Below are positions 1 to 54,461 of a stretch of DNA of 64,000 bases, in pieces. The notes below the pieces were generated by a model, which was given only the letters and a program-made list of their open reading frames with translations, made no database searches and was not told the origin of the DNA. The position numbers and the translations under genes are program-made. How positions within the stretch are numbered: the stretch's first letter is position 1; each line of letters begins with the position of its first letter. Source of the stretch: Cycas panzhihuaensis (lineage: Eukaryota; Plantae; Cycadophyta); assembly GCA_023213395.1 (NCBI GenBank), contig CM041465.1, positions 126,301,741-126,365,740 of the forward strand, read 5' to 3'.

Positions 1-92
1 AAAAGCTGGCATTTCATCACATTCATAGATGACTTCTCAAGGAAAATGTAGGTCTATCTCCTGAGAAAAAAGTATAAAACCCTAAATAAATT
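1..92 (+). repeat. Copia integrase fragment; inverted copy of the 4.9 kb tandem-array unit
   Basis: Translates KSWHFITFIDDFSRKM*VYLLRKKYKTLNK (Copia integrase core). By eye it is the exact reverse complement of 62405-62496. Confidence 0.9.
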
Positions 93-592
93 NNNNNNNN
101 NNNNNNNNNNNNNNNNNNNNNNNNNNNNNNNNNNNNNNNNNNNNNNNNNNNNNNNNNNNNNNNNNNNNNNNNNNNNNNNNNNNNNNNNNNNNNNNNNNNN
201 NNNNNNNNNNNNNNNNNNNNNNNNNNNNNNNNNNNNNNNNNNNNNNNNNNNNNNNNNNNNNNNNNNNNNNNNNNNNNNNNNNNNNNNNNNNNNNNNNNNN
301 NNNNNNNNNNNNNNNNNNNNNNNNNNNNNNNNNNNNNNNNNNNNNNNNNNNNNNNNNNNNNNNNNNNNNNNNNNNNNNNNNNNNNNNNNNNNNNNNNNNN
401 NNNNNNNNNNNNNNNNNNNNNNNNNNNNNNNNNNNNNNNNNNNNNNNNNNNNNNNNNNNNNNNNNNNNNNNNNNNNNNNNNNNNNNNNNNNNNNNNNNNN
501 NNNNNNNNNNNNNNNNNNNNNNNNNNNNNNNNNNNNNNNNNNNNNNNNNNNNNNNNNNNNNNNNNNNNNNNNNNNNNNNNNNNNNNNNNNNN
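93..592. other. Assembly gap (500 N)
   Basis: Run of N of fixed length 500. Confidence 1.
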
Positions 593-3414
593 TACTCCCT
601 TTTGTTCCGGAGTTTGGGATGTTTTTGCAGCCGGTTTATGAGCATGAAGGAATTGACATTGTCACCTATAATCTCACACCATCCACAGAGCGCTATCATT
701 AACAGCGTCCTTACTAGCTCGGCCACCATCGGGGCTGAGGTTGGCTTTTCAGATGCTAAACTCATTACTTCCATTGGACTTCCCCAAAGTTGGTCTCTAA
801 TATGTGTCCCCGTTGCTAAAAGAATCGGGCGATTCATGCTATCATGTTGACTTCCACCATGACATTAATAATGACCCTGTATCCACTGAGGACAACTTCG
901 CTCTCATTCATCAGTCAAATGTAATGATCATCTGACTATATTTGAAGTCATAATCGCTTAATGGATAGCTTCTTTAGCGGCTACTAACTTCAAAATCCAG
1001 TTTCCTCCTAAAATAGGCATATAAGGCGACCTTCACACTACACCATGGGGTACCTTTGTTTGTAAGGAAATGCCCTTTGGCCCTTAAAAATGTAGGTGCT
1101 ACTTACGGAGAGCCATGCATTTCATCTTCCACAACCTCATTAATAACACATTAGGGGTCTTCAAGCGGATGATATGATGGAGGCCTCTCTACGTCATCAG
1201 AGGCCCATCATTCCCCATAGAGCTTGCGGGACATCTTCTCCATGATGCCACAAGTATCAATGTCGAGTCATCTGCTCAAGTGTGTATTTGCTATTACTTG
1301 GGGTAAACTCCTTGGGTTTCTTGCAATGACGAACAAGGGAATCCAGTTGATCTGACATTAAGGTTAAGGGTAATCCCTTGACATATGTCGCCTCACGAGA
1401 ACCCAGCGATAGATTAAGTCATTTCTAGGTAGGCTCAATTTTCTCAGGCATATGGGCGGATTTCGCCATGCAGTGCTAAACCCTATGAAACTATTGAAGA
1501 AGGGAGCTCACTTTCATTTGGTCGACAAGACCCAAAAGAAACACTGAAGGACTCAAGAGAGCCTTATTGCTTAAGAAACTCTATCTTGGTGCCTCCTCCA
1601 CTTAGATGGGCCCTTTGTCACATACACCTCGGTGATTATGAGTCCTTGATGCGAAACTATGTTGGCTATTCGGGAGGATGACTTGGGAATGAGAGTTATT
1701 TATTTCATTAATCACACCCTCGTGGCTACTTAACTGTAACTATTCTCTCTGAGGAAGGAGTGTCTCTCCTTGGTCCGTATGTGACGAAAGTTGAACTTCT
1801 TGGCTTGGTAATACCACCAAGGTGATCGTCAATCCAGATCCCTTACGATGCTAACTCATCAGTTCAGGAATTAGCGAGGTAGGGATGGTATTGTGCGACC
1901 CATCCTACTTCTGAAATTCGACAGCTTTATACGTTAAGCCTGAAAAAATCAAAGAGGGAATGGTAGTGGCAGGAAGTAACTTTATGAGATGCCCCTATCT
2001 CCAACTCCTTTTGATGCTTTCTTGTTGTGCAATTCTCTCCATGATGAGTCCATCTTGATAATTCGGGATATCTCCCCTCATCCACTCATCAACAATAGAG
2101 GTGGTGTAATGGTGATATAGTCGCAAATTATCTCACTAGCGGCAACAATCGCCTTGATCTTTACGGTAATAAGGGTTAGATCTACGCATCAGGACTTCTA
2201 CCGAGTAATACTTCCTCGATGAAGTATTATACAAGCGATCACTTGATAGGATCCTCCTCAAGCTACGTCTAGCTTTGCCAGCGAAGTTGGACAAATACTT
2301 CGGCGGAATACCACCGCGCTGGTATTTGGCCAGGGGGCCACACAGGAGGCGATCTATGGCAGGAAGGATCGCTTCACATGCCCGATTATTCTGGTAGTCC
2401 CTTTTCAAGGGCGCCCACCACCTTTACTTTCACGAGATGTTGTGCAATGTTAGGAACAATGCCAACATTTCTAATAATCTATCAAGGCCCTTCGCATTGT
2501 TGTTCTCCATGGCCTTTCTACGCTAAGTGGGGCTAGACCCTCCCGTAAGGCTATTTCTCCACCTTAACCGTCATTCTTGACCTACAAGTTTATCTTGAAT
2601 GCCACGGAATAGCCTTCTCGAATGGGGTGGAGCCATTCCGCATATTACTACTCCTAGTAAAATGATAGCCACATTCGATTTACCGGCTTGCATCATTCTA
2701 CCGGTTTTTGGGATTCGAGATGTCTAATCAGCTATGACAATGGAACCACCCCTTTTTTGCAACAAAAGGGAGATGGATGAGCTTTGCGAGAAGTTCTAGA
2801 TTTCTCCCAAAACTTCCTCTCGCCCACCCTCGAACAAATGGAGAAGTAGGAGTCTTTCAGGTAGACTCGTCAATATCTTAAAGAAAACCATTGCTTTCGG
2901 GTCTCAAGAAATTTAACGCCTTGTTGCCCTCACTTTTGTGGGCTTATCTTTCTCTATCTGTTCCACCATGAGAGGAATGATCTCGTTCTCCACTGGTCCT
3001 ACATGGTATCAGAGGCTGATACTCCCCTTTGGAGGTGGAGATTCCTTCTTCTGATCTCCCTTGAGGTCTCATCGATGAAAGTTGATCACCATGTAGGAGC
3101 TCTTATACGGATCTTGAGGCTTTGGACGAGGCAACCTTAGGCGCCATATCAGGAGGCTAACCTGGCATCAAGCTTCGCTCCTGCAAAGGACTCTACGATA
3201 AACATCTTTGTTCCCATCCTTTGTTTTCGGGGATTCGTCCTCAACCTTGAATATCTTCATGACCATTTGACCAAATTCAAACCTCGATGGGTTGGCCACT
3301 TTTGCAGTCATTATCGAGACTCTTAGTAATGGTGCTTATAGGATCGCCACCACGGAAGAACTTGAATTTGAGAAAGTTATTAATAGAAAATTCCTTAAGA
3401 AGTTTTACACGTGA
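593..3414 (+). pseudogene. Gypsy pol (RT, RNase H, integrase), heavily frameshifted
   Basis: Fragments: TTPWGTF and MPFG.KNVGATY (~1040-1110); SFLGRLNFLR (~1420); integrase PWPF..WGLD (~2510). The C-terminus reads GAYRIATTEELEFEKVINRKFLKKFYT*, with TGA at 3412-3414. Confidence 0.85.
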
Positions 3415-4020
3415 CCTCACTGTCACTTAGCCATACTCCGAAATGAGCCTAAATTACCATCTTAAGTTATTCATTCCTCCCGGCCATGGGTGAAATGGCA
3501 ATTTAGGAGTGGCCTCTTCCATTTCTTTTTGTTTCTCCCATGGAACCCATGTTCCCATATCCTTTTTAGGACCTTTTGTCTTCTATTTGGGCATCTCCTA
3601 ATCGGGCGACACTTTGGATATCATTACTCCTCTCTCTCTCTCAGTGTTTCCTTAGCACATCTGCTATGCTCCTCCATGGGACGTGCATATCGCTCTATTT
3701 CTAACCTCACACTTCTCTATCACCTCTACTCATAGTGGGCGTGTGTACTCTGTTAGACATATAACCATGCATGGAAGAAATCGTGTGTCATATAACAAAG
3801 CATCTGTAACATACATAACAAAACATGCATGCCATCATGCACATGATATACACCATCTCATATCAAAATGGGTGCAATTGCCCGTATATATATACATCAA
3901 AATCATATGTTACATAGTACATATGGGAAGCAGTGTCCTTGTAGGGGAGTACAATCATATGACTCTATATATATGACCCCTGAGGGCGTGCTTTCCCTAT
4001 CAAAATCTAATATATGTGTC

Positions 4021-6335
4021 TTACTCTCTGCTATCCCTCACAGGGTACCATCTCACAGCTGTGTGATCCCTCTCCTGAGGACCACATCCCTCAGGAGCTC
4101 CTCCACAGGCCTCCACGAGCTCCCTCGCTCCCCTCTCATCACATGGGCGTCTCGGGGTTGTCCTTTGAGTGTGGGTGTATGTCTGCTTTTATCTGCTCGA
4201 CCTCGATGCCACAGTCTACCGGTGATCGTGTCGAGGCACAGATACGATCTCTCTCACTCTCCGCTCCTCGGAGGCGGCTCCTCTGGGACCTAGTCGGACT
4301 GTCCCATGCTCACAGTGTCTCCACACTCCTCCACAGGCCTCTGAGAGCATGTACATACCTCGTGGTGTGTCTCACTCCCCCCTAGCCTCATCCGACTCTG
4401 TTGTATACGTACTCACAATGCCATGCTCTTGAGACTCTGTGGCCCCAGGATGTCTCTCTCCCTGCACTTGGCCAGAGGCCAGCGCCATGTGTGCACCTAC
4501 CGATCTAGGCGCATCCTCTACCTGGATGGGCGGTTATCCCTCTGCATACACCTAAGGGAACATCTCTCTCACCATAGCCTCTACCAAGCACGATCTCGCG
4601 GTACCTGAATCAACATACCATATATCAATATATATCCGGTGCATCACCGAAATAAAACTAAATCAAACTATCTATCGGCTACTAAGCGGTGAGGAATGGT
4701 TAGGTCTCATACAGTGTGGTGACTCCTCTACCCATGCGGTAACCTCTCCTCTAGCTCCCACTTGTTCTTGGTACCTCCACCTCGGGTACCACCTCTGCAG
4801 GGCTCTCTCCTCACGGAGGCTTAGCTCGCCTCTCTGGATCTCTTCATGATGCAGCAGCCTCACGGGCCCTCGTCCTTGATAGGCTGCCTCTCCTCTGGCG
4901 ATCCACACTGGATGGCCTACTTTGCTCCTCTTGCCATCCACGATGGACTGCCTCTCCGTAGGTCGTGATAGGCTCGCCCCATCTCCTCCATCATCATCAT
5001 CATCATCATCGCCGCCCGGGCGCCCTGCTCCACACCGCGCTTGTCAGCTTTGTCCCACCTCAGCATCCCTACTCTGAGATCGCCACATAATCCATCATGG
5101 TGAGAGGTCCGGTGATGTCACCTCAGGGAGTGCTAGGCGTGGGCTGGTCCTCCATCCCCTTAGCCTAATGCCACACTTTGGCAGACCATTAGGGCCCACT
5201 TTGCAATGGGGTGTGGTCCTCCCACTGATGCCACTACTCCAAAATGATCAAAAAAATAGCATTGTAGCAATGTGTTATATGATAACCCTCCTCTACCAAT
5301 CATCCTGATAGCGTCGACATGCGCGATGAGGTTCGTTGCTATCAGGGTGGCCCAGTCCATCCTCTCGTTGGCCTCACAGCGGTGCACTGCATCCATCCAT
5401 CCCCCAGGGATGTCTCTATAGTTCTATTTCTGGGAAACCTTGAACAGAATATACAATGTAATAAGCTTCCTCACCCAAGGAATCCTGGACATCACCATCA
5501 TCTAGAGAGGGACTCCTCTCCTCTCCCATCATACATCACATGAAAAATGATGCTGCCTCATGATGTGCTGCCTCATTACTAGGTAGCGCCCCCAGTGTCA
5601 CCGGCCTCCCAATCGCCGGTACTCCTAAAATCCACTGGATATCCCTCGGCATCACTGTCATATCTCCTACCTGGGATACGTGGAAAACATGCCTCCTCTG
5701 TCCTGGTGTGATACGATATCCACTTAGCAACCTACCGATCGATGTGTATTGAGGTGTCTTGAGGCCTTGAATAGGTTGCACCTCCACAGAGACCCCTAGT
5801 CCTCTCCAGACATCATCTCGATATAGCTCAGCATTGCCATACATATGTTCTCGTGGTTATCCACAGCGATAACAGCCTGCTAACACCACAAACCCAAGTC
5901 AATCCCATGTCAATCCTCATGTTTTACGGTGTCTCAACTCTCTGCTTGAGATTTGGGGCCTCATGGCCCCATCTTCTTTCACTGTGGGTGCGCGCCCAGG
6001 TACTAAACTTGGTAGTGTAAAGTTTAGCTTGGGTCCTGACGATCGAGGCCCGTGGCAAAGATCACGGCATCGCGATCTTTGCCCAGATGACGGAACCCCA
6101 GAAAAGTTTACACCAAAAATAATAAAAAATCTTTTGTGTGGACCCCGTAGAACCCACGGGACTAGGCTCCCTAATCAGAGGTCCCCCTCTTTAGGTCAGT
6201 TCGGACTGAGGCCTCCATACTTTATATGGGGCATGAAAACTACGTAAAAATCAACAAAAATCACTGAATTTTAAACTTTGAAATGGGATAGGTTTCGTGG
6301 GATCCACTCACTGGATCTGGTCTCATTGTCGCCAT
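4021..6335 (-). pseudogene. Spliced antisense accessory gene: Plant Mobile Domain (PMD, aminotransferase-like, PF10536) followed by an acidic linker and an R/E-rich tail
   Basis: ORF 5536-5844 RRHVFHVSQVGDMTVMPRDIQWILGVPAIGRPV matches the PMD motif xTFH.P.GE.T.TL.DV..ILGLP..G.PV. ORF 5160-5396 DWATLIA...GGLSYNTLLQCYFFDHF matches W...LA....GG...LLQ.W..EHF. Predicted ATG at 6335 (MATMRPDP). Predicted introns 6311-5877 (GTGAGT..TTGAC..TAGCAG) and 4712-4605 (GTATGA..TTCAG). (GAT)n at ~4990-5010. The 3' end is approximate. Confidence 0.75.
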
Positions 6336-6491
6336 CGGCGTCCTGGCGATCCGTGGCTCCTCCGCACTCCGATCCAGCGGTCTGATCTCCCTCTGCGTGC
6401 CTCCAAAGTCAGGCGACGCTCCACTATGTAAGGAAATGGTTCTGGTTTCTCACGAGAGCTGGTGAAAATGAATCCGTTTTCCATTCAATTT

Positions 6492-6502
6492 CCTTATATA
6501 GG
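6492..6502 (-). promoter_or_regulatory. TATA box of the antisense PMD gene (near-palindromic)
   Basis: CCTATATAAGG on the minus strand ~160 nt upstream of the predicted ATG; reads CCTTATATAGG on the plus strand. Confidence 0.5.
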
Positions 6503-6994
6503 TGGGGGCCCTAACGGGTACTCCCTCTATTTTCGCTCTCGCGATAGCCATTGGGGCCGTCCCATTTCCTTGATCACCTTTGTCTTCTAGTCCTGTCTCC
6601 TGTTGCATCCCTTTAGCGCCCTTTTTGCTCTTTCTTGTGGGTGCATTTATGGCACCTCATGTTTGCACTCTTTCGAAGGGCCCTTATCTCGTTTGCATGC
6701 CACTCCGTGCATGCAGGAGTTTATACTTGATTGGCTCGTTTAGTCTGGACTCATTTAGTAGCCCTTTTACGCTCTTGGGGTCTCCGGAGGAATCTTGTCA
6801 GGGCACGTTGTGCTTCCAAGTGGCCTTTGGTAATCTAGGTGCCATTTTTTCTACCCGCTTTCAGGTAGGGATCAGACTGCTTGCTCTCGTCCTTAGGTAG
6901 CCTCATTGCTAGGTCCTCCTACCCTTCACAGCCACTTATTGCTTCTTGGGTCCCTCTTTTGCTCCATTATCATTTATTTACTACCAGAACTTTG

Positions 6995-7360
6995 TATCAC
7001 CCATGTCCCTCTATATTTTCTTGTGTTGAAATACGGTAACCTTGGACCTTCTATCATGCATGGATCCTTCATAGCCCCTTTGGACATGATTTCCTGCACT
7101 CTTGGGTCTTCCTCCCAGAGGCTACCAATAATGAAGTGAGTACCACATCATTGAAACCCTCAGCGCTCTTTGTTTCTATCACGGACCTATTATTACGCTT
7201 CGACTCTCAAGTTGTGGTGTCCCATCTCACCCGGGTTTACCGGTTCGATGCCCTCACTTGAGAACCCTCGCTCTAGCCTAGATCCCTCTAGCTCGCTTCT
7301 CATCTATTGAAATTCAATACATTCGCAGGCCCTCAACCGAGGGTGGATAGCCTCATTTGC
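6995..7360 (+). pseudogene. Archaeal/plant-type RNase H (aRH, RVT_3-like), detached from pol
   Basis: Across frameshifts: LYF..YGNLGPS / AWILHSPFG...FLPEATNNEVEY / FDSQVVVSHLTRVYR / CPHLR..RFSSIEIQYIRR.LN..VDSL. This matches the aRH motifs GNPGP, TNNxAEY, DSxLVV and HI.R..N..AD.L. Confidence 0.8.
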
Positions 7361-7799
7361 CTCATCCTTGAGCGTCGCCTTCCTCTCCTTGTTGATCGCC
7401 CCTAAGGCTTGTCTGGTCACTCTGTCACACCCAAGCCCTATGTCATCAACGCTTCACCTTGCGATCCATTCGCACCTCTAAAACTTAGCCGCTAATGAGG
7501 TTAAACTATGGCGACTACCAGTTTTATTTACTCTTCTACTTGATCATGTACATCTCTTTACATCTTTCGTGGCGGAGGTAGCCCCCTTGCCCTTTATATT
7601 TTACAGTGATTCTGGGTGGCACATGGCGGCCCTATGTTGTCTCCACCTCTGCCTTCATATCCACGCGTTCCACCACGACACTTGCTGGTACCCTTGACCA
7701 CTGTTATGATCTTGATTTATATATCTATATGCACATGTGCTACTGACAGTTGTGTTGCTAGCATTCGCCATCACACCATACTTCTGAGCGGCGAGGCTC

Positions 7800-10602
7800 T
7801 GCGCGAGGCGGTGTTTTCGGCTTCCGAGAATGGATACGGAGCGGTCGACTCAGGTAAGTGTAGGTGTGCTTCTCACCTTATCATTGTTTTCTTTTGTGAA
7901 TTGTATATGCTTGCATGATGTGATTTCATAGATGATCTTGTTGTCATCTACACTATCTAACTATGACAACTATAGTGAGGGCACATTCCCAGTGAGTGTG
8001 GCACCTCGGTGGCCATTTCACTTCCTGCATTCTTCCCTACTCGCCTCAAGACCCATTTGGCTCATGTCATCCTTGCGTCACGATGACGTCATTGTTTGGT
8101 TGACTTGTCATGTCTTTTGAGTCCTATTTTGCTCTTATGACTCGTTTATTAGCTTGTCTGCCTCTAGGCAGGTGGCCCTGCCCCCTACCAGCCTCCTTAG
8201 TCATTGGTCCATAGCCCAGGCTGGCTGTTTGGGCTAGATTTGGCCTCTAGTCCTACACTGCCACAAATATCATAGTACCCTTTGCAAAGTATCACGATCT
8301 TTACAAAATTTATAGCGGTCTGTTGTCTCGGTTGTTTTAAAAATCTGCCGTGCCAATTCTTACATTTATTGTGGAACTACCACGTGTCTCGCGACTTGAC
8401 TCACCGCCAGTTGTGCCCTAATCGCTTGTTTAGGGTTCAGGTTGGGTATTTAAGTCTTTCCTAATTCATTTTAGGGATCTTTTTGCTTATTTTTGGAAGG
8501 ATCTTAAGGAAAACGGCCTACTCTACTTTTCCTTGCTCCACTACTTGTTCCGGGACTGTATCAATCTCTAGCACCCGGCTCTCCTTTGGTACAGCTGTGA
8601 CATCTTCCCAGCCCCTTGCACACCTTGGAGAGGGCCTCCTTGGAGAGATTCCAGCACTTCCTTGTCAAGGCGACCATCAAGCATCCTCAAGTGCAGTTTT
8701 CCTTCAGCCATATTAGCAAGGGCTCCATACCTATTGTTCCACAGTCTTTTGGCAGATTTCTCAGCCTTCTTTCAGCAGTTCTTGACAGAGGAAAAGCCTC
8801 CCTTCTTCTCTATAAGTATTTGTTGGTTTAGGGTTTTCTCTTATCCAATTTATGCCCAGGTTTGCATGTCATTTCTAACTTGTCTTAGCTTACTCTTTGG
8901 AGGTTGTTTCTTGTCTTGCTTTGGACTATTTTTTCCCTGCTGTTAGGGCCTTCTTTCTTGCATTTCACCGTGAGACGGCCAAAGGGATATACAAGGTTTG
9001 GGTTAGGCGGGTGGATTCCACACCACCTTCCACATTCCCTAAGAGGCTTTTTGCCCTCCAAACCTTCCCTTTTGCCCCGTGTTGCTCTTGGAAGTGAAAC
9101 AAGGGTTTGATAGGCTATCTCAAGTTGCTGAAATTAGCATTGTCACTCATTGTAATGCTGGTTTGAGGGCTCATATCTTGATCTGGGCAACACTCATAAG
9201 CCCCAGCTACTTGTCCCTGGCTCAACCTCGTTCTTGACAACCCGGTTTGCTTCCCATAGCACTCTAGTTTGTTGTAGATCTCTTTCAGCTTTTTTTTAGA
9301 CTCTTGTTGCCTCTATTTCCAGCCTTCTTGCATAGCCATACCCTCACTGCCTTGTGGCTTCTTGAGGGAGGATAGGATTGCTCCTTGTAGGAGGTGGGCC
9401 ACTCTGAGGCTTACCGGCTTACTCTTCATTTATTTGGGTCATTTTCTCTACAGTTTATTATTGCAATATTGAATACTACTTGCATGTGTTTAAGTTTATG
9501 CTTGTTTCATACATACATGTATTGTTAGGATTTTCTATTATGTGCTAGCACCCTTTCTCTGGAAAGGGATACTTTCATTTACTTATAGGTACACGGAGGA
9601 CACAAAGGACCCATTCCTTTTCCTCTCTCACGGATAAGTGCTTGGTTTATGTTTTACTTTAGTAATTCATTTGTTGCTAGCATTTTGTCCCTTTTTCCTT
9701 TCTTTGCACTCTAGTGTCGTTTCCGAGGAAGGTAAGGAAGCCCCATGCTTTGGTCTCTGCAACTCTTCTCATTTGCCATGCTTTCTGGGCGATTTTGGAT
9801 ACCTCATGGGAGTGCCTTGGCTTCAACGTGTCTCCATTACGGGTACATACTCTCTCTACCTCATTTCCTTTTCTTTAAAGGTTTTTATGCGATAGTAATT
9901 AGGTCATTTGAAAGAAAAAGAAAACCAACCCCATCTTTGATTTATATTCAATTTGCTACACTTCTCGCATTATATCTATTATAGGAAAAGGTCTTAGGAA
10001 GTCTCCCCTTTCACCTTTTCCCCTCATCTTACAAACTCCTCCTTGTCTCATTGACTTGTTTTACTTAGTTAGTTTGCTTGCATACATCATAACTCTTCCC
10101 TTTGATTGTTCCTTTGTCCTTTCTCGGTTTTCTCTCACCTAGCGAGCGAGAAGATCTTGTCGTGGGTCGCTCACTTGCCGCCCTTTCCTCATTTCCCTCC
10201 CTAGAAACCCTTGAAGGGTTCTCTCCTTTCCCTTCCAGCCATCCAAGGGTGGGAGGATCCTTCCCCTAGGTCTACTCAGGTTAATCCTATGCCTCCTCTC
10301 TTCTTGTTTGAAGTAGGGAACCACCTCTAGGTAGCTGGATATCATTTGCAGATCCCAAACTCGCGCTCTGATGCATGGGGTGCCCTATGTGGTATTTTCC
10401 TTACTCGTAGGTCCTCATCCACACTCAATAGTACCATTGACTGCCCTTGTCATCCCTACTCAGTTAAGTAGCTATCCCGTAGATGTGCATCTGAGGGGTA
10501 GCCGACCTTCTATGCTCATGTACCTAGGTATAAAGAGTTTAATTTTCTTACGTATCAATATATATTGAGCCCCTAAACTACCATTTTTGGGCAGGTATAA
10601 CT
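7800..10602 (+). repeat. 3' LTR of the Tat element (~2.8 kb, ends approximate)
   Basis: Non-coding and preceded by a G-rich PPT-like tract (~7786-7797). Collinear along its length with the reverse complement of 47461-49982 (shared GAATGGATAC, CCTTGGAGAGGGC, AAACAAGGGTTT, GGAAGGTAAGGAAGCCCC, CCAAGGGTGG). Ends TTTTTGGGCAGGTATAAC. Confidence 0.65.
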
Positions 10603-12974
10603 AGACAAAATAGTAATTAAGGCCTTCCTCGAGATAGATAAAACTCTAAAATTCTAGTTTAGAAGCCTATCAAGTAAATAATTCATAAAAATGATAGCTT
10701 GAATTATAGTATCAAACACAATAAAACTATTTAGGAGCAAAAATTTTTTGGCCTATAAGAAATAGGTCAAATACCTATTAATCATAAATAATTTCTGGTC
10801 ATATGTTTCAGGTGACATACCCAAACTTATTTTTGCTTATGATCCAAATGACCTTGATGTTGAAATACTTATAGACCTTATTGTCCTTGCTACCTTTAAA
10901 GCCAAGGATAATATTTCCCTTTCCTTCCTTCACCTAGTTGTGGAGGATAATATTGATCAAAACTTAGAAATGACCAACTCCTTATATGAAGCATGGAGCA
11001 ATATATGCTCCCTTTATGAGAGGAAGGATGAATCTAGTACTATCATGCTTAAAGCATGCCTATATACCATCCCTTTTACTAGTTCCATTCCATCTCACAT
11101 GATTGAGTGAAGTCTATTTGAAACCAACTTAACACTCTTAGTGCCTCCCACTAATCATGACCTTATTGCTAATGTAATCAATGTCCTACAGCTAATTAAA
11201 ATAGTTTTATGTCATGCCTATTTAATAACTTTATTACAATGGATTTCAACACTATAGAAGGATTACTACTTGGGAAGAGGGTATCATACATTATCAAGAA
11301 GCAGTATCTTCATCTAACACTGCTCCCACATTCACAACTAGGAATCGTGGGAGATATCAACCTCAACATTAGCCCTTAGCCCAACAATTTACTTCTATAA
11401 ACTTGAACCAAATCTCTCAATAACTATAACATTCTAGAAACTAGCCTAAGAGATAGAATGTTACCTGCTTGTATTATGGTAAACTTGGGCACTTCATCCT
11501 AAATTATAGAAAGAGACAATCTAATTTATAACTTATGCCACCTCAAACTAGTCAACAAGGTGGGGGAACCTTTTAGCATAATAGGGATTATGGAAGGAAT
11601 AACAATAGACAACAATAGTAGAGAAATCAAACTAGGAACTAGAACCAAGGTAATAATAAGAACTTTTAACAACGAGGTCATATGAATAATTTACAGGCCA
11701 ACTCTCAAAACCTATTTTTTGTAGCACTTTCTTCACACCATGTCAATAATTCTTGGTTGATAGATTTTGGTACCACTCCCCACATGATTGGCACTGAAGA
11801 ATTTCTTTAGGGCACTTCACCTACTTAGGTATAAACTATAGCTTTTGGTGATGACTTAACATATGATATGGAAAAGATTAGGAAGACTCCCATAGCCCTG
11901 AGGAATTTAGACATAAGACATCATATGAGTAATATCCTCTTAATACCTAGCATGTAACCAAACACACTACCTATAAGCCATATTGACAAGTAAAATATTG
12001 ATATCCCTTTTAGCCAAGGTATATATACTATTTTTTACTACTCAATTAGTCAAATAGTTACTACAGGGCATGAAGACAATGGTCTCTATAAACTTGATGG
12101 TGTCCCTTATCCACTACTTAACAACTAAATTCATGTGTCTCAATATAAACAAATCACCTTGATAAAGGAAAGGTTATCATTGTTGAAGACCTACTTACTA
12201 AGAAATAGGGTGAATACTCATATAGCAAAGAGCAACCTATATATAAATGCACTAAGGACCAATTATGGCACTAACACCTATGCCACATCAACATGCTGAA
12301 ATTAAACCTTATGTTTAAACTTTAAATGGTGCATGGGTTACCAAAAATCAAATAAAATAAATGTTTTTGTAGAGCCTATATAGTTGGAAAGAAACATGGG
12401 GAACCTTTTCCTTCTAAAATAGTATGGTGAACAACTGAACCATTGGGGTTAGTTCATTTAGATATCTATGGACCCATGTTAGTTCAATCCCTCAATGGTA
12501 GCTTATATATTATAACCTTCATTGATGACTACTCTCAAAAAGTATGGGTCTACTTTCTGAAGAATAAATTTAAAGCCTTTAACAAATTTAAATATTTCAA
12601 AGTAAAAGTTAAAAATGAAACTAGCATAACTATTAAGATTTCAAGATCATATAATAGACAGGAATACACCCTAAGATAGTTCATTAATTGTTTTAGAGAA
12701 TTTGGTATTAGGTGCTAGTTCTCCACTCCTCACACCCCTTAGCAGAATGGTGTTGCTTAATGAATGAACTAGACGCTCATGAATAGAGCTAAAGCAATGG
12801 TTAAAGTTATTAATCTTTCTACTATATTTTAGGCTAAAGTTATATAAACTATTGTATACTTGATAAATATAAGCTCAACTATAATAGTTAGGGATATAAA
12901 ACCCAAGGAGTCTTGGTTAGGCTAAAAGTCTATAGTCTCACACCTTAGAACATTTGATTGTATAGACTATAAAT

Positions 12975-14555
12975 TGTTAGGTTAATGATTATCACGTAAC
13001 CCTATATTAGAAATATGTAGCCACATACACATTCATGGTAAGTTATGGTAAGTGTATTTTTATTGTAAGTGGTTTACTATTTTATATTAATTTGACTTTA
13101 GGTTGAGGAGGGATCCCACCCTCCTTAGCATATTTATTCTTTGGGGCCAAAACCCCAGGTGTTCTTTAACACCACCATCACAAATGATATGTGATGTACT
13201 CTTCTTTAATATGGCATAAACATGATATGATTTTGGCTCTTAATATGGATTAATTATGCATTCATCTACTCTGCTCTCATCTCTAATAATCTACATTTGG
13301 TATTAGAGCCATTTTTTATCTATACAAGAGTTAGGGATCTACTTTTTGGCCATTTTATTTTTTCAAGGATTTTTCGGCATATGGAAGTTTTACCAGTTGG
13401 GAGTAAAATCAAAAGATTTTTAAAGAGTCAATAGAGAATTTAAGACAAAAAGGCTTGTGCCATAAATTTTGAGTGGTCATAGTGCTAGTTTTGGTGGAAA
13501 GTTACAAACATTATAGTAGATTTAATTTCGACATGATTTTACATCCAGTATTTTTAGGACAATTCTATAACTTCAACTTTAAAGAGCCATAACTTTGGTT
13601 ATAGATATCCAAATGACCTCAAATATTTTTTGATTCTATGAATTTTTGAATTTCCTTTCTAATGGAAGTGGTTTAAGGTCAAGCATAGGTAAGCGCAAAA
13701 TATTATTAACATTTTATCACTAGGTATTATTATAGTCCTTAGAAACCCTATTAGTAAAGTTCTTCAAATAGTCATAACTTTTGATCCAGGAGCCTATTTT
13801 TCAAATAGTAGGATCCATTAGAAATTTTTTGATCCTCTACATATTGGAATAGGTTTTATTAATATCTAATATTATTTTTTAGGGTTTTTAAACTAATAAA
13901 ATCAAGGATTCTGTTTGGTCCTAAGTTGACCTATTTTTTAAAATTTTCAAGTAATTTTTTATTCTAATTCAGTATATTTGTTTATTATTGAGCTACTAAT
14001 TAGGTGTTGATAGATGTTTACAATTTTTAAAGGTTTATAACTTAATTTTACAACCATTTAGCTATATTTCAATCTCTTGAAAAGAAGGAGCCTCTTTGAG
14101 AATAAAAATGACAAATTAGTGCATTCAGATCCCCTCTAATTCTATTATAAAGATGTCATTTCATATTCTAGCTTATAAAGTTGATTCTAAAGCTCTTTAA
14201 GATATATTTTTTGCTTATTCAGAGTTATTCTTTTACTTCTTTAAAGTTTTTAAAGTTACATCTAGATCATTCAAGGAAAAGCACTTGATTCTTCTTTAAG
14301 CTTATTTTGGATCATTACAGAAGTTATTTTTCAAAGTGGATTTTTCATTACTAAGTTATATTCTCATTAATCAGGGAGGCATTTATCTAAAATTTTATAT
14401 ATATATCAAGTTTTTTGACTCACTAATAAAAAGAATATTCAAGTTTATTTAAGGTCATTACATTTGAAAGCTCAAAGGTGTATTATAATGCATAACTATA
14501 AGCTCATTGTTAGGCTCTTGTTTCTTTAAGACTCACATATACACACAGACATATA

Positions 14556-14607
<52 letters not shown>

Positions 14608-15938
14608 ACCTTTTGAAAGGATCATTGATTGAATATTAGTTTCATTCCAAAAGAATATTTATCTTACTTAAAAGGAGATTTATTGCATATTTTAGATTCA
14701 TTTATTATTTTTATTTTGAAGGGATATATATTCTTTGTTGCCATATTATTATCCTTCATTGATTAAAGAGGATTCTATGTTGAAATCATGATTGAAAGTT
14801 CTTATGAAAACATGTTTATTGTATATTTCAAGTTATTTATTTATTTCAGGTTAAGAGTTTTCTTATTTATTCATTGAAAATCATACATTTTTTATTATGT
14901 ACTAAAATCTTTTATATAATGGCAATAAATCTAAGTAGCATAGGTTTTCCTATATTTAACGGAAATGATTTTAAGCTATGGAGTAAAATAATGAAAGTGT
15001 ATTTTCTTATAAATGATTTATGAAATTTTATAAAAGATGGATATGAACCAAGTGTTAAAGAATACATCAAAAAGAATAATAAAGCCTTATCCCTAATGTT
15101 TTATGCAATAGATGATAAAATATTTTCTAGTACAAGTGAGTTAACTACTTCCAAATTTGTATGGCATACCTTAGAATCAATTTATGGGGGAAATACTTTG
15201 GAATTAAATGTCAATAATTACATTGATGATACTTTTGATGTGAGATAGATGATAGAGTAGGTGAACTTTGATGACAAGACTAATGTTGTATGTACTAGTG
15301 TAGACTTCGATAAAATCGATAACTCTAATGTCGTCACATTTCACAAAATTGTATGTACCTTAGACCTGATTAATGGAAAAGACAAAACAAAGCCTCTCTT
15401 ACTCATTTGAATCAAGTCATACCTACTTGGAATCCACTTAAACTACATAGTATTAAAGAGACACATATTATTGAAAAGATGATAAGGCAAGTTGATGACC
15501 ACTTCACGCATGATGATAAAACTAAAGGTCAAGTATTCAAATTTTTCCTTGAGTATAAGTATCATAAGTTTAAAGAGAAATTAAAGATGTATGTGATGAC
15601 CATTAAGGGGGAGAATGTTGGGTTAATGCTCATCATATAACCTTATATTGGAAATATACAGTCACACATGCATTCATTGTAAGGTATGGTACGTATATTT
15701 TTTATTATAAGTGGTTTATTATTTTATATTAATTTGAATTTGGGTTGAGTTTGGCTTCTGCCCTCCTCTTGCATATTTATTCTTTGGGGGCAAAACCCCT
15801 AGTGTTCTTTAACACCACCATCATAAAGGATATTTGATGTACTCTTCTTCAACATGACATGAATATGATATGATTTTGGGTCTCGATATGGATTAACAGG
15901 TACATTCATCTACTCGATCTTGTCTCTAATAACGAACA
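12975..15938 (+). mobile_element. Non-autonomous Copia-derived LTR element (gag-only, TR-GAG-like), 2964 bp
   Basis: LTRs 12975-13295 and 15616-15938 (TG..CA, roughly 80-85% identical). TSD TAAAT at 12970-12974 and 15939-15943. Met-type PBS TGGTATTAGAGCC at 13298, PPT AAGGGGGAGAA at 15605-15615. gag N-terminus MAINLSSIGFPIFNGNDFKLWSKIMKVY from ~14919. No PR, INT or RT. Confidence 0.92.
14559..14606. repeat. (GT)24 microsatellite
   Basis: Read directly from the sequence. Confidence 0.98.
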
Positions 15939-17464
15939 TAAATTTATTCCCAAAGAAAGAAAAGAAATTGGATGACAAAAGTATAAAATGCATTTTGTAG
16001 GATATGTACTTGAATATAAATCATATAAGGTGTATGATCCTTTGGGAGATCGTATATTCCTCTCAGGATGTGATATTTATAGAGGATAACCAAGACTTGG
16101 ACCTGTTATAACTTTAGTGTCTTACCAATGATGATATTAGGTATGCGAAAAGTACCTCTTGTACTAAGTATGGACATTTCTATTTCATTAACCTCCTATT
16201 CTCTAAGTCCTTCATTAGCTCCTCCAACATCACCTTCCATTTCGACAACTACTTCTACAATACCACCATTATCCTTAAATGACTTGTAAGTTAAAGTTGT
16301 AAGCATCATAAAACTTTTGAAGCAATATTTGCAAGTGATGAAAGATATTCCTCCACCTCTAGTATCTCTTAAGAGGAAATTAAAACTAAGGCATTTAACA
16401 AACTTTGCCTTAATAGCATGAGTTCTTGAAGCTCCTGAGCCTTCCATGTTTAAGGACCAAACATGGGAAGTCGCAATGAATGTATACATGAATTCCATCC
16501 TTAAGAATGATGCATGGGAGCTTACCGAATTTCCACCTGATAAAAATCCAATTGATTATTATTAGTTGTATAAGATAAAATATCATTCTAATGGCTCTAT
16601 TAAGTGACATAAAGCATGCTTGGTTGCAAAAGGATTTAAATAGCAAGAAAGTATTAATTATAAAGAAACATTTGCCCTACTTGCTAATTTGACTACCTTT
16701 AATTTGGTTATGTCACTTGCTACCTAGTTCAAATGGTTAGTGTGTTAGATAGGCGTGAAAGTACTTTTCTTAATGGAGAACTTACAAAAGAAGTATATTT
16801 GAGACAACCTCTTGTTTATGTTATTTCTAGTAAAGAACACTTAGTTGATAAGCTCAAAAAAACTCTTTATGGTCTTAAATAAGCACCTCATACTTGGTAT
16901 GCTAAAATTAATGTCTTTTCTATCATGCATGGACTAAATCATTCATTCTCTAATCGTAATCTCTACATTTAAATGTAAAACAATTTGATCATCATCATTA
17001 TTCTTTATGCTCATAACTTAGAAATCACTAGAAATGATGATAGCGGTATTACTAGTCTCGATAGGACACTGAATAGTAGCTTGAGATGATAAGCGTTGGA
17101 TCGGTTCATTACTTCCTTGTAATTAAAGTATAGAAAAAATTAGGACATATCTTCTTATCATAATCAAAGTATACAAATGAGGTTCTATAGTAATTCAGAA
17201 TGAACAACTATAAACCTTTGTATATTCCGATAGAGATTAGTACAAAACTCACTATGGATGAATAAGAAAAACCTATTAATCCCACACTTTATAGATAGCT
17301 AGTAGGGAGTTTGATTTATCCTACTCACACTCATCCAGATATTTCATATATAATTGGGATCTATTCTAGGTTTGTATCATAGCCTAAAATGTGATATTGG
17401 AAGGCTACTACAAGGATTCTCAAATACATGTGTGATACTTTATAGCTTGGGTTGGATTATAAAC

Positions 17465-20400
17465 TATTAGGATTATTAATGTTAGTTTTATATTATTGTT
17501 ACTTTATTCTATCTTTATATCACATGTGTAAATATAAATTTAAGTGATTTAAAGGTTTAATGTTGAAAGTTTATGTTAATATTTATTCATTATGTGAAGG
17601 TCATTGAAATACACAACTGCCCATTTCAACGAACTTCTCTTGCTACAAATAGCCTCTCCTAGATTCTAGGAATTGGTTTCGAGAATCTAGGAGGTTATCA
17701 ACTTTGTTTCAAAGGCCGATTTATTATATGTAGAGTATGCTTATTAAGGTCTTATGTATAGTTTCTGAAATTAATAAAATCTGATATTAGAATGGTGATT
17801 TTTCTTCCCCAGAAGGGGTTTTCCACCTGTTAAAAGTTGTATGCGTGTGCGATGTCTTATTTTACTGTGTTTGTTAATCTTCTAGATCATGTGGCATTGT
17901 GCATGATACATATTCTTTCATGGTATCAAAGCACAATGCCACAGTTCTAAAAGCAGACAATCTAGCCACTGTCTCGAATACTCTTAAGGAGACATGTGAT
18001 AAGGTCAACACACATCAATTAGTTATCCTAGAATAGCAATTATATGACCTTAATTATGATGATTTTTTTAAATTCAAAGATTTTGTATCTAAAATTTAAC
18101 TAATCAATAAAGACCTAGGTAACTATATTAAGACCAAAATTAAAGTAGATGATGATAAACAAATAGTCACACATGTCAAAGACGATGATACACTTGTTCA
18201 TCTTGCTATAAACAAATTACCAAAACATTTTAATTTTTTTTAAACTACCAGACAATAAGCTAGCAATCCTCTTATAATTTTTAATTAGTTGACAAACCAA
18301 CTAATAGAACATCAAATGATGTTAATTCAAACAAGAATATTAAAAGATTTCTCTCAGGCTTTATTTTTCAAAACTAAGCCTCAAAATAAAAATAAACATC
18401 AAAACAACTTCAACAGTAATCCAAACTTCCAAAAACCTCATAGAGGTTCACCTTCTAACTCTCAAAATAATATTAATTATTCTAGTCTATCTAAATATCA
18501 GAATACTTCTAATTAGTCTTTTCAAATTGAAATACTATTAATCCTTCTCGGAGCATTAGTTGTGCTTACTTCTATAAGAAAGGCCATACTATTGGCGTCT
18601 GCGGTAGAATAACTTCAAAAACATGGAAAGCTTCGAGGGTTTACAAACTCGACCATAATCCTAGCCACAAAATCAACCACAATCTCATAATCGTTCTCTA
18701 ATGGCAATAACTTCTACATTTATTGCTACAACTAATCAACCACCACAATGGATCCTTGACTCTAGTGTGTCCCATCACATGATAGGACACCAGTAAAATT
18801 TATCCACTTATCAATCTAAAACTAACTCTAAAGAAGATATTTCTTTTGGAAGTGGAACCCAACTTAAAGTAAAAGGATCAGATAATGTTACTTTAAAAGA
18901 CGGTTCAATAAAGGACATATTCTATGTACTTAGTTTGTTATCAAACCTACTCTCTGTTTACCAAATCTGTTAGAAAAACCTTGTTGTCGAATTATGGAAA
19001 GATAAATTTATTATTAAAGAACCCTTCAATAAATTCAGATGTATTTGCTTTGGACCTGTTGATCATAGTACAGGTCTCTATAGTTTAACGAGTTTACAAA
19101 GTAATAAAACAAAGCCCTTTAGTGACTTTATAGCCAAATATGACTCAGTTAGTAAACTATGGCATGCATGATTTGGGCATACTAGTTATGACAAACTTCA
19201 ATACCTAAAAAAGACATGACATGGTTCATGGTCTTCCACCTTTAAATACTATTTATGGTGTTTGCAAAGCCTGTGTAACAGATAAGTAACACATAGATCC
19301 TTTTCCACATAAAACTCAATTTAGAGTGAAAGTTCCACTTGAGCTTGTTTACTCTAATATATATGGACCATTTCATGTAACCTCATATTCTGGCTCTCAT
19401 TATTTTGTCACATTTATTTATGATTATTCAAGAAAATATTGGGTGTACACACTCAAGACATGTAGTCAAGTGTTTGATATTTTCATTGAATTTAAAACAC
19501 TTGTTGAAAACTAATCAAACTTGAAAATTAAAATCTTTAGATTTGGTAATGCCAAAGAATACTTAAGTGGCAAATTTACATCCTTCTGTAAGAAGCACAT
19601 AATACAATTTTAGCATTCTGTTGCCTACACTCCTCAGTAAAACAGTGTTGCTGAACATAAGAACCACACTCTTGTTGAGATAACTCGTTGCATGTTACAT
19701 ACAAATAATCTTGATCTAAAGTTATGGGTAGAGCAACTACCTACTCCAACTATCTTCTAAACCGCTTACCTAGTAAATGCTTACAAAACGTTACTCTAGA
19801 ACAAAAGTGGTCTGGAAGAAAACCCTCAGTTAATCATCTACGAATCTTTGGAAGTATTACATGGGTACACATTCCTAAAGAAAAACGCAATAAACTAGAT
19901 CCAAAAAATCAAAAATATATCTTCGTTGGATACAACGAAGAAAGTAAAACCTCTGAGACTTTTAGATCCAGGTCACACATCAAATTGTAATTTTATGTGA
20001 CATAATATTTGATGAAGAAGGATCTTCTTCAACCTCTACTTATGTAGAACTTCTAGATGAAAATATGTTAACCAATACCTATTTGGTTAACCCCTCCAAC
20101 AAATAAGTTGACCCTAAATTATAGAATCTTTATCTACATAAGTCTAGAATTGGACTCTATCTAAACCAACTGAAACAGATTCTTCTTTCCAATCTGGCTC
20201 CTCATTTCGACACAGTAACTACAGAAATAATTACTAATAAACAGCCCATATGGGTAAAGAAAACACTTTCTAACACTCGATCTAATGTAGGTAATCCTTC
20301 AGATACTAGGCAAACACATGCTCAAAAATTACATGCTAACTATGCTTTAATGGCCAAAATAATGGACAATAATGATCCTAAAACCTTTAAACAAGCTAGT

Positions 20401-22402
20401 AATAATCGTGTATGGTAGGAATCTATACAAGTTGAATTTGATTCTTTAAACAAAAATTCAACTTAGGATCTTGTATCACTCCCACTAGGAAAAAATGTAG
20501 TTGATTATAAATGGGTTTATAGAACCAAATACAACTCAGCAGTAGCATTGAAAAGCATAAAGGTCACATAGTACAAAAGGAATTTCTCAAATTGATGGCA
20601 TAGATTATAATGAAACCTTTGCACATTGCAAAATGAATCTGATTAAAATAATTATTGCTCTAACAACCAAATTTGGTTAGGAAATCCATCAAATGGATGT
20701 AAAGAGCAATTTTTTAAATGGTGATCTCAAAGAAGAGATCTGTATGACTCAACCACCTAGTTTTATTAACAATCATAATTTAGTTTGTAAACTAAAGAAA
20801 TTAATCTATGGATAAAAACAAGCTCCTTGAGCTTGGTACATGAAAGTTGGTGATTATCTAATTCAAATTGGATACACTAGATGTATTAGTGATCCAAATC
20901 TTTATTTCAAACGTGAAAATAAAAATATTACCATTTTAATCATATATGTTGATGATATTATCACCCTTTGTATCATCAACTAATAACATTCATCACTTAA
21001 AAACTACTTTACTGAATAAATTCGAAATGACCGATCTAGGTCTTCTACATTATTTTCTTGGATTACAAATTTACCAACATGATTCGAAAATAATTATATC
21101 CCAACTAAAATATATTTTAGACATAATCAAACAGTTTAACATGGAAAATGTTAAACCGATTTCTAATACATTACAATTAAGAGTAAAACTATCTACTTAT
21201 TATTCCACACCCTTGTGTGACCTAACTTTATATAGGGAACTTATTGGTAGTCTTATTTGTTTAACTCATACCCACCCTGATATATCCTATGTTGTTACTT
21301 TTGTTTCGTTATATGCAAAACCACATGAATCACATTGAAAAGCTAAATATATACTTCAATATCTTCAAAATACTATTTTTATAGACTAACTTATCATTCT
21401 TGTAGTAAACCTTTAACCTTAATAGGATATACTGATTCAGATTAGGCAGGCAATACAAATGATCATAAGTCTATATCAGGTTATATATTTTTTCTAGATT
21501 CTTCATCCATTACTTGGTCTAGTAAAAAAATACAAGCACTAGCTCTATCAACGACTGAAGCTGAATATTGAGCACTTGTTGAAGCAAGCAAAGAAGCACT
21601 TTAGCTCAAATCTCTTTTAAATGAAATTAGTATGTCTCCTAACTCTTCTATAGAACTTAAAGTTGATAATCAATGTGCTATTGCTATTGCTACAAATCCA
21701 GTTGCACATTCTAGAACTAAACACATCTAATTGCATTAATATTTTATTCGTAATCTTGTTCGATAATATTATTCATTTGTCTTGTTGTCCTACGATCTGA
21801 TTCTTGATATACTTACCAAGTCTTTGACTGACGTCAAGTTTCTAAACCTATGAGATTTGTTAAAAATAAAGAAGGTCTTCATCAAAGGGGTCAACATAAT
21901 GATGACCTTCTTTTCTATATTATATAAAAGCTAATAGTAAAGAGGGATATTAGGATTATTAATGTTAGTTTTATATTATTATTACTTTATGGTATCTTTA
22001 TGTCACATGTGTAAATATAAATTTAAGTGATTTAAAGGTTTAATGTTTGAAAGTTTATGTTAATATTTATTCATTATGTGAAGGTCATTGAAATGCACTG
22101 CGCCCATTTCAATGGACCTCTCTTCTTCTGAAATAGCCTCTCTAGATTCTAGGAATTAGTTACGAGAATCTAGGAGATTATCTAAAAGCATGTTTCAAAG
22201 GTTGGTTTATTGTATCTAGAGGTATGCTTATTAAGGTCTCATATATAGTTTAAAATTAATAAAATCTTAGATTAGAATGGTGGTTTTCTTCCCCATAAGG
22301 GGTTTTCCACCATCAAACATTGTATCGTGTCTGATGTCTTATTTTACATGTGTTTGTTAATCTTCTAGATCCGTGGCATTATGCATGATACCTATTCTTT
22401 CA
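17465..22402 (+). mobile_element. Ty1/Copia element B (4938 bp), nested in the RT/RH junction of element A
   Basis: LTRs 17465-17920 and 21948-22402 (about 90% identical). PBS TGGTATCAAAGC at 17921, PPT AAAGAGGGA at 21939-21947, imperfect TSD TAAAC/TAACA. Domains: PR WILDSSVSHHM, INT LELVYSNIYGP (19326), RT HQMDVK/YVDDI, RH KSISGY/RTKHI. Confidence 0.92.
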
Positions 22403-25779: not shown

Positions 25780-26220
25780 AAAGTTTAAGCTTTTGAGTTA
25801 TTCTTTAGTATTCATACCTCTATAGAAACAAACCACTACTAAGGCTAAACTATAATGGTCAATCCTCTAAAATTCTTATTACTGTTAAGAATAAAACTAT
25901 GACAAACCTCCCAGCATAGATATCCTATTTCTTATGGCTTTTAAGCCTTTTATAGTGTCTAAGCTTCTAAGCCATTCTCTAGTACTTACCTTTGAAACAC
26001 AACCACTTAAAAGATTAAACTATAATGGCCCATTTTCTGATGTTCTTATTAATGAGTTTAAGCTAAGGGTGGCATTCTTTGATATTTTACTAATGAGGCT
26101 AAACTATGATAACCATAGCACTGAAGTATTTATCAATGAGGTTAAACTAAGGGTGACATTCTCTAAGCCTTCACCAATAAACCTAAACTATAATGATATT
26201 CATCTTTTAGATTATTATAT
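25780..26220. repeat. Degenerate tandem repeat, ~75 bp period (alternating AAACTATAATG and AAACTAAGGGTG subunits)
   Basis: Visible in the DNA and as RLNY...INE.KLRV repeats in ORF 25934-26227. Confidence 0.7.
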
Positions 26221-43167: not shown

Positions 43168-43667
43168 NNNNNNNNNNNNNNNNNNNNNNNNNNNNNNNNN
43201 NNNNNNNNNNNNNNNNNNNNNNNNNNNNNNNNNNNNNNNNNNNNNNNNNNNNNNNNNNNNNNNNNNNNNNNNNNNNNNNNNNNNNNNNNNNNNNNNNNNN
43301 NNNNNNNNNNNNNNNNNNNNNNNNNNNNNNNNNNNNNNNNNNNNNNNNNNNNNNNNNNNNNNNNNNNNNNNNNNNNNNNNNNNNNNNNNNNNNNNNNNNN
43401 NNNNNNNNNNNNNNNNNNNNNNNNNNNNNNNNNNNNNNNNNNNNNNNNNNNNNNNNNNNNNNNNNNNNNNNNNNNNNNNNNNNNNNNNNNNNNNNNNNNN
43501 NNNNNNNNNNNNNNNNNNNNNNNNNNNNNNNNNNNNNNNNNNNNNNNNNNNNNNNNNNNNNNNNNNNNNNNNNNNNNNNNNNNNNNNNNNNNNNNNNNNN
43601 NNNNNNNNNNNNNNNNNNNNNNNNNNNNNNNNNNNNNNNNNNNNNNNNNNNNNNNNNNNNNNNNNNN
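43168..43667. other. Assembly gap (500 N)
   Basis: Run of N. Confidence 1.
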
Positions 43668-54400: not shown

Positions 54401-54461
54401 AAAGTGGTTCATTAAGGATTATAAGTTAGTTCCTAGTTATTTTGATTTTAATCAAGTGGTG
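51460..54461 (-). pseudogene. Copia internal fragment, copy 1 (mid-gag, PR, INT, first part of RT)
   Basis: gag HDLISSIIDILPIEYNSFV; INT FITFIDDFSRK and KLDDKSLKCIF; RT KARL..GF..EGIDYDKTFA, truncated after YKLK. Confidence 0.85.

What the first reader, a model, noticed from the sequence alone, without database searches (positions are those of the whole stretch)
3415..7400. Divergent two-gene accessory cassette in a Tat retrotransposon: antisense PMD gene <- TATA -> free-standing archaeal RNase H
Seen: pol stops at 3414 with no aRH between RH and INT. About 3.6 kb later a clear aRH lies on the plus strand (6995-7360), head-to-head with a minus-strand PMD gene (ATG 6335). About 650 bp separates them, including the near-palindromic CCTTATATAGG. 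Established: Tat elements carry aRH at lineage-specific positions (including downstream of INT in some lineages); antisense extra ORFs and PMDs occur in non-chromovirus Gypsy elements; the host proteins MAIN/MAIL1 are PMD proteins that affect silencing. Inference: this aRH cannot be part of the polyprotein and needs its own or a spliced transcript. The element may therefore run an internal bidirectional unit pairing a chromatin/anti-silencing factor with an RNA:DNA-hybrid nuclease. I cannot verify whether this exact layout is already described.
Basis: partly seen in the sequence, partly recalled or inferred. Interest (0 to 1): 0.8.

Follow-up and report, generated by a model that had tools for sequence, protein, structure and literature searches.

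The report
Tat retrotransposon with back-to-back extra genes
This dead plant retrotransposon copy carries two extra genes facing away from each other between its integrase gene and its end repeat, a gene set already known from gymnosperm Tat elements, and the mirror-symmetric DNA between them likely acts as one two-way promoter, which would explain how the detached RNase H gene is expressed.

Summary
The layout is real. A decayed Ty3/gypsy element reads RT-RH-INT (stop 3412-3414), an antisense PMD remnant (confirmed through sister-copy proteins), an archaeal-type RNase H remnant on the + strand (about 7003-7480; 34.7 bits, 200 shuffles at most 17.3), then a 3' LTR (about 7811-10490). Both extra genes are broken in this copy. 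The parts are known: gymnosperm TatIII / structure #3 ('post-integrase') elements carry a solo aRH after INT (PMC10508981, PMC13468544), and lineage III carries an antisense PMD ORF (PMC4408406). An older copy at 25.3-26.6 kb repeats the order aRH - repeat motif - LTR start, so that position is a family trait. Not found in the texts I read: PMD lying between INT and aRH, and a dyad-symmetric spacer centred on the TATA. The TATA consensus fits only the PMD strand, but both arms carry the same downstream motifs at mirrored distances (post hoc, p about 0.004-0.015). Best reading: the spacer likely drives both genes, and the aRH likely supplies in trans the RNase H activity that the native RH lost, rather than acting as an anti-silencing nuclease. 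No RNA evidence; order in sister copies not shown directly.

The parts
610..3414 (+). Decayed pol: RT, native RH, INT; no aRH between RH and INT; stop TGA 3412-3414. The 5' part of the element is lost in the N gap 93-592
   Evidence: motifs read by eye; no aRH above shuffles; not confirmed by Pfam or PDB
5355..5864 (-). PMD (PF10536-type) core remnant, broken
   Evidence: 47-71% identity to sister proteins P0004, P0006, P0010, P0011; 282.8 bits with their profile
3950..6335 (-). Likely full extent of the antisense extra gene (first ATG after the TATA at 6335; the part below 5355 and the 3' limit are read by eye only)
   Evidence: Atlas gave no usable hit for 4675-5043; inferred
6411..6585 (.). 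Dyad-symmetric spacer centred at 6497/6498: TATATAAG on the minus strand (6500-6493); GCTCTCGYGA at 6459 (-) and 6535 (+); CCATTTCCTT at 6439 (-) and 6562 (+); also a 13-of-14 inverted copy of the TATA 14-mer at 6424-6437. Candidate two-way core promoter
   Evidence: function untested
7003..7480 (+). Solo archaeal-type RNase H (aRH) remnant, 5 frameshifts; the Glu and the last two Asp motifs are recognisable, the first Asp is not
   Evidence: limits outside 7035-7329 read by eye
7494..7508 (+). Repeat motif AATGAGGYTAAACTA after the aRH; one copy here, four (two exact, two with 2 mismatches) after the older aRH
   Evidence: 6 matches, 0.51 expected, 0 of 100 shuffles; back-joints at 7475-7515 in sister contigs
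7811..10490 (+). 3' LTR (ends approximate), preceded by a purine-rich tract
   Evidence: 58% over 2258 columns, E 7e-45, to the 5' end of a second Tat element; ends

Best explanation
This is a dead copy of a likely gymnosperm-type 'post-integrase' Tat element (TatIII / structure #3) in which an antisense PMD gene and a solo aRH gene sit back to back between INT and the 3' LTR, and the mirror-symmetric spacer likely drives both, so that the aRH would be made as its own protein and would supply in trans the RNase H activity that reverse transcription needs. Shown here: gene order and strands, position inside the LTR-bounded element, absence of aRH in pol, spacer symmetry, breakage of both genes. 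From the literature: native RH is degraded in all aRH-bearing Tat structures (PMC10508981); an antisense extra gene has its own upstream promoter in maize Grande (PMC7264820). Inferred: (1) the TATA at 6500-6493 starts the PMD transcript near 6471 (about 0.8); (2) the same module starts a + transcript near 6529 whose leader is spliced or bypassed to reach ATG 7003 (about 0.5); (3) the aRH protein enters the particle and works with RT (about 0.7); (4) PMD acts in the nucleus on silencing (about 0.4, no test here).
For: aRH 34.7 bits against a maximum of 17.3 in 200 shuffles, none in pol or in gag-PROT-RT of the second element. LTR homology places the aRH inside the element. An older copy repeats aRH - motif - purine tract - LTR start (0 of 30, 0 of 100, 0 of 200 shuffles). 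All 30 bins of 2000-11000 are covered by 38,666-71,334 contigs in each of 4 runs, and none of the 15 listed joints (of 94) links the INT end to the aRH. Summed length of the two partial elements, about 15.9 kb, is within the TatIII range 12.7-17.3 kb. Minus-strand TATA with an initiator-like TTCATTT at +29 and no ATG before 6335. The two arms about the TATA align better than 1000 of 1000 shuffles (997 and 985 of 1000 without the core), rank 57 of 15,530 centres, and two 10-mers occur once per strand in the whole window, one on each arm.
Against: No RNA data. TATAWAWR fails on the + strand by one base. The + leader is about 470 bases with ATGs at 6649, 6659, 6697, 6711, and splice-like sites are not above shuffles. 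The symmetry tests were chosen after seeing the sequence, 56 other centres score higher, and the same DNA folds as a hairpin (z -3.6 RNA; z -2.7 DNA), so it may act as RNA structure. Neither PMD nor spacer was found upstream of the older aRH (one tile at 1 of 200 was matched by a control region). Sister contigs are too short to show the order, and one contig skips 5409-6882. Pol domains are read by eye; no RT tree was possible.
Confidence: 0.55

Rival explanations
1. Same element class, but the spacer promoter serves PMD only (as for Grande gene23) and the aRH is translated from a spliced, env-like subgenomic RNA that starts in the 5' LTR.
For: [quoted passage not shown]
Against: Acceptor count is not above shuffles (2 against 1.8); does not explain the mirrored motifs on the aRH side of the TATA.
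Confidence: 0.27
2. The 3.6 kb block is spliced out so that aRH is joined to the INT C-terminus, giving the Pol-aRH fusion drawn in 2015.
For: Would solve how aRH reaches the particle; a GT overlaps the pol stop; splicing of Ogre gag-pol is cited in PMC4408406.
Against: That GT does not reach 5 of 7 consensus matches; the aRH has its own ATG at 7003; no such joint among the 15 listed DNA joints (DNA only).
Confidence: 0.07
3. PMD and aRH form an anti-silencing module: aRH removes R-loops or siRNA-linked hybrids at the element and is not needed for reverse transcription.
For: Host PMD proteins MAIN/MAIL1 act in silencing and Gypsy-encoded PMD clades exist (PMC5418596); shared promoter would co-express them.
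Against: Native RH is degraded whatever the aRH position (PMC10508981), which points to a replicative job; elements of several Tat structures carry aRH without any PMD (PMC4408406).
Confidence: 0.08
4. The PMD block or the aRH is a secondary insertion or an assembly chimera peculiar to this copy.
For: Single, badly decayed copy next to an N gap; PMD not found before the older aRH.
Against: Every bin is high-copy in 4 runs of 4 organism labels; sister PMD proteins exist; older copy has the same aRH-to-LTR order; both parts are published for this lineage.
Confidence: 0.03

Closest known systems
TatIII (REXdb, PMC6317226) = Tat lineage III (PMC4408406) = structure #3, clusters Tat H (Pinaceae) and Tat I (Cycas, Ginkgo) (PMC10508981) = 'post-integrase' (PMC13468544)
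   Same: Order RT.RH.INT.aRH; no aRH between PROT and RT or between RH and INT; antisense PMD ORF in the 3' part; size about 15-16 kb.
   Different: The 2015 text puts aRH at the very C-terminus of Pol with PMD at the 3' end; here PMD lies between INT and aRH and the two are head to head. The 2023 and 2026 texts give a separate aRH ORF but do not mention PMD or a promoter. Figures were not visible to me and may show the order.
Ogre (Tat lineage V) and Retand/Grande antisense extra ORFs (PMC4408406, PMC6317226, PMC7264820)
   Same: Antisense PMD (Ogre) or other ORF between pol and 3' LTR; Grande gene23 has its own upstream promoter.
   Different: Their aRH lies inside pol between RH and INT; no second gene runs the other way from that promoter in the passages read.
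MAIN/MAIL1 host PMD proteins (PMC5418596)
   Same: Share the PMD domain.
   Different: Host genes of clade PMD-C; the clade of this PMD was not tested; no function shown for element-borne PMDs.

Membership tests
TatIII / structure #3 | aRH present downstream of INT, inside the element | tested here: met
   LTR position
TatIII / structure #3 | No aRH between RH and INT, nor between PROT and RT | tested here: met
   19.0 bits in 592-3500 and 15.4 in the second element's gag-PROT-RT start, within shuffle range; the PROT-RT check rests on the second element
TatIII / structure #3 | aRH outside the pol frame | tested here: met
   stop at 3412-3414, ATG at 7003, antisense gene between
TatIII / lineage III | Antisense extra ORF with PMD in the 3' part | tested here: met
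TatIII / structure #3 | RT/INT phylogeny within Tat H or I | not testable with these tools
   no reference Tat proteins could be fetched; RT too decayed for database hits
Tat | Native RH catalytic core degraded, aRH core intact | tested here: inconclusive
   one decayed copy; three of four aRH acidic motifs recognisable; native RH read by eye only
TatIII | tRNA-Arg/His primer site and 5-bp target duplication | not testable with these tools
   5' end lost in the N gap; site after the second element's LTR too decayed
TatIII | Gymnosperm host | not tested
   organisms are coded; inferred from the structure only
Ogre / Retand | aRH between RH and INT | tested here: not met
TatI / TatII (structure #2) | aRH between PROT and RT | tested here: not met
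   on the second element sharing the LTR

The most novel reading that the evidence does not exclude
Post-integrase Tat elements express their detached RNase H from an internal, dyad-symmetric two-way promoter shared with the antisense PMD gene: an inverted duplication of the PMD core promoter let a core replication enzyme leave the polyprotein and work in trans, co-regulated with a chromatin factor.
Probability: 0.4. Interest if true: 0.62.

Novelty: new member of a known kind. Interest (0 to 1): 0.38.

Why it matters
PMC10508981 states that an aRH outside pol raises the question of how it can work, and PMC13468544 calls it controversial whether the post-integrase aRH is part of pol or a separate ORF. 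In this copy an antisense gene lies between INT and aRH, which excludes simple fusion, and the symmetric spacer gives a concrete, testable source for the aRH transcript. If true, an LTR retrotransposon would supply a core reverse-transcription enzyme in trans from an internal promoter. The gene content itself is already known, and this copy is dead.

Tried and rejected
No own genome is held, so genomic copies could not be counted or ordered. Pfam on whole frames, 200-300 aa frames and stop-free pieces gave only the weak PMD hit. Protein searches: window PMD piece against longer proteins, 0 of 160 candidates; aRH frame, 0 of 5; 7 of the 9 hits were long multi-stretch proteins of unrelated families and were dropped. 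PDB sequence searches were negative or chance. tblastn hits of the aRH piece in plasmids and phages were chance; the one fetched is a sensor-kinase-like frame. No sister loci in IMG/VR or JGI metagenomes (the 2 pattern hits have no similarity; one search gave one 16-residue match). No RNA holder listed, which says nothing on expression. The in-window chromovirus-like RT/RH pieces did not confirm pol above shuffles. Likeness between the DNA after the INT stop and after the aRH is not significant (45 of 200 shuffles). Spacer or inverted repeat upstream of the older aRH: not above shuffles. No INT directly upstream of the older aRH (19 of 60), which is uninformative at that decay. The sigma-70 scan does not apply. 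Earlier findings of the scan: nothing. Whether sister copies keep the spacer motifs base by base stays open.
Full report
What is there. Window 592-10490 is the 3' two-thirds of a badly decayed Ty3/gypsy element; its 5' part is lost in the N gap at 93-592. RT, native RH and INT are recognisable by eye in alternating frames, and the last INT frame stops at TGA 3412-3414. No database search confirmed these pol domains, so the label 'Tat' rests on motifs read by eye and recalled, on the aRH, on the PMD and on the LTR link described below. No whole genome is held.

PMD. Direct Pfam hits are weak (E 0.31; E 0.13). A phmmer search of 1.84 billion proteins gave 9 hits, of which 2 are single-stretch relatives (P0004, P0006); the other 7 are long unrelated proteins and were dropped. 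P0004 found P0010 and P0011 (3 of 9 candidates, itself included). P0004 and P0010 hit PF10536 at E 2.9e-5 and 3.1e-4, below the curated cut-off, and P0010's 10 best family hits in the ESM Atlas are PMD. The four proteins align to the minus strand at 5864-5355 with 47-71% identity; this copy has 4 frameshifts and 4 stops there. ATG 6335 is the first ATG after the TATA but every frame between it and the PMD holds stops here, so it is a likely, not a shown, start.

aRH. Single-frame searches failed (E 0.28). I collected 9 prokaryotic and phage RNase HI proteins starting from a PF13456 hit and ran a frameshift-aware scan. With an averaged BLOSUM profile the hit was borderline (29.7, 100 shuffles up to 30.2). 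With HMM log-odds it was clear: 34.7 bits at 7035-7329, profile positions 15-116 of 137, 200 shuffles at most 17.3, 5 frameshifts. The older aRH at 25.3 kb also aligns there (38.0, 40 shuffles at most 27.0). The Glu and last two Asp motifs are recognisable, the first Asp is not. The same scan found nothing above shuffles in pol (19.0), in 3415-6400 on either strand (14.8, 13.2) or in the second element's gag-protease-RT start (15.4).

The aRH is inside the element. Window 7828-10021 is 58% identical over 2258 columns (E 7e-45) to the start of a second Tat element at 49968-47911, which runs on into gag and protease; similarity spans about 7811-10491. So 7811-10490 is the 3' LTR and the aRH ends about 330 bases before it. 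An older remnant at 25295-26600 repeats the order aRH, repeat motif, purine tract, LTR start (0 of 30, 0 of 100 and 0 of 200 shuffles). PMD and spacer were not detected upstream of it. In public runs, 17 of 24 listed hold a small share of the words, under 12 organism labels, none on record as RNA. In the 4 runs laid (of those 24), 38,666-71,334 contigs each cover all 30 bins of 2000-11000 at 80% likeness or more; of 94 joints 15 were shown, each from single contigs, none from the INT end to the aRH, one skipping 5409-6882. The contigs are too short to show gene order in sister copies.

The spacer. TATAWAWR matches at 6493-6500 on the minus strand only, and it is the only match between 3976 and 7715. 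On that strand an initiator-like TTCATTT lies at +29 and no ATG precedes 6335; on the + strand an initiator-like site lies at +34, followed by four ATGs before 7003, a donor-like site at 6865 and an acceptor-like site at 6987, counts not above shuffles (consensus rules recalled). Two symmetries go beyond chance. A 14-mer holding the TATA has an inverted copy at 6424-6437, 13 of 14 bases; 0 of 1000 flank shuffles reach 13 and 1 of 759 tiles elsewhere in the two elements does. And the two arms read outward from 6497/6498 carry the same motifs in the same order; the alignment beats 1000 of 1000 shuffles, 997 and 985 of 1000 without the core, and ranks 57 of 15,530 centres; GCTCTCGYGA and CCATTTCCTT each occur once per strand in the 64 kb window, one on each arm. 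These tests were chosen after seeing the sequence, and the region also folds as a hairpin (z -3.6; z -2.7), so RNA structure is an open alternative.

How it most likely works. The PMD gene likely has its own promoter in the spacer, as maize Grande gene23 does (PMC7264820, section read). The mirrored motifs suggest the same module fires towards the aRH (about 0.5); a spliced RNA from the 5' LTR is the main rival (about 0.27), an INT-aRH splice a minor one. Because the native RH is reported as degraded in all aRH-bearing Tat structures whatever the aRH position (PMC10508981), the solo aRH likely serves reverse transcription in trans. A role of the PMD in silencing is an analogy to MAIN/MAIL1 (PMC5418596, passages) and untested.

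What is known. PMC4408406 (passages and one section; supplement passages, one file not searchable): gymnosperm lineage III has aRH 'at the very C-terminus' of Pol and an antisense PMD ORF at the 3' end. PMC6317226 (passages; supplement rows): TatIII, 39 elements, 12.7-17.3 kb, aRH after INT, 18% with a 3' reverse ORF; its PMD hits are listed for Ogre only. [quoted passage not shown] PMC13468544 (passages and one section): 'post-integrase', with controversy over pol fusion versus separate ORF. PMC11963269 and PMC8775202 (passages) added nothing; PMC7156037 was seen as a listing only. Eight searches found no text placing PMD between INT and aRH or describing a shared promoter; figures and scanned supplement pages were not visible and may show the order, and subscription papers are not in the library.

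Verdict. The element is best filed as a new member of TatIII / structure #3, with the tree, primer site and host untested. The new points are the order of the two genes and the symmetric spacer, which make a stated open question testable. Interest 0.38; 0.62 if the two-way promoter is shown.

Noticed in passing
window 25295-26600 (+): Older, AT-decayed remnant of the same kind: aRH (hmmsearch E 5e-8; 41.8 bits), several copies of the repeat motif, purine tract and LTR start homologous to 7657-8003.
   Followed up: yes
window 43668-49984 (-): 5' half of a second Tat element: LTR 58% like 7828-10021, then gag, protease and RT start read by eye, no aRH; cut by the N gap 43168-43667.
   Followed up: partly
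window 7830-7859 (+): About 20-45 bases into the LTR lies an ATG followed by a perfect splice donor CAG|GTAAGT (7 of 7); the second element's LTR keeps GAATGGATAC and GTAAGT at the same place. It could belong to a spliced 3' end of the aRH RNA or to a short exon; unexplained.
   Followed up: partly
window 49985-64000: Three tandem copies of a 4.9 kb unit, 87-100% alike in most blocks, similar to the Copia-like remnant at 11.1-12.0 kb; window 1-92 is an inverted match to it (95-100%).
   Followed up: no
window 10766-21335 (+): Copia remnants: gag (twice), integrase, SH3-like and RT pieces.
   Followed up: no
window 38500-40200 (+): Another Ty3/gypsy remnant (protease, RT, RH), chromovirus-like by eye.
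   Followed up: partly
window 3950-5100 (-): Purine-rich stretch with an acidic run and charged, coil-like pieces after the PMD core; may be a coiled-coil tail, which PMC4408406 reports only for later Tat lineages. Atlas gave no usable hit.
   Followed up: partly
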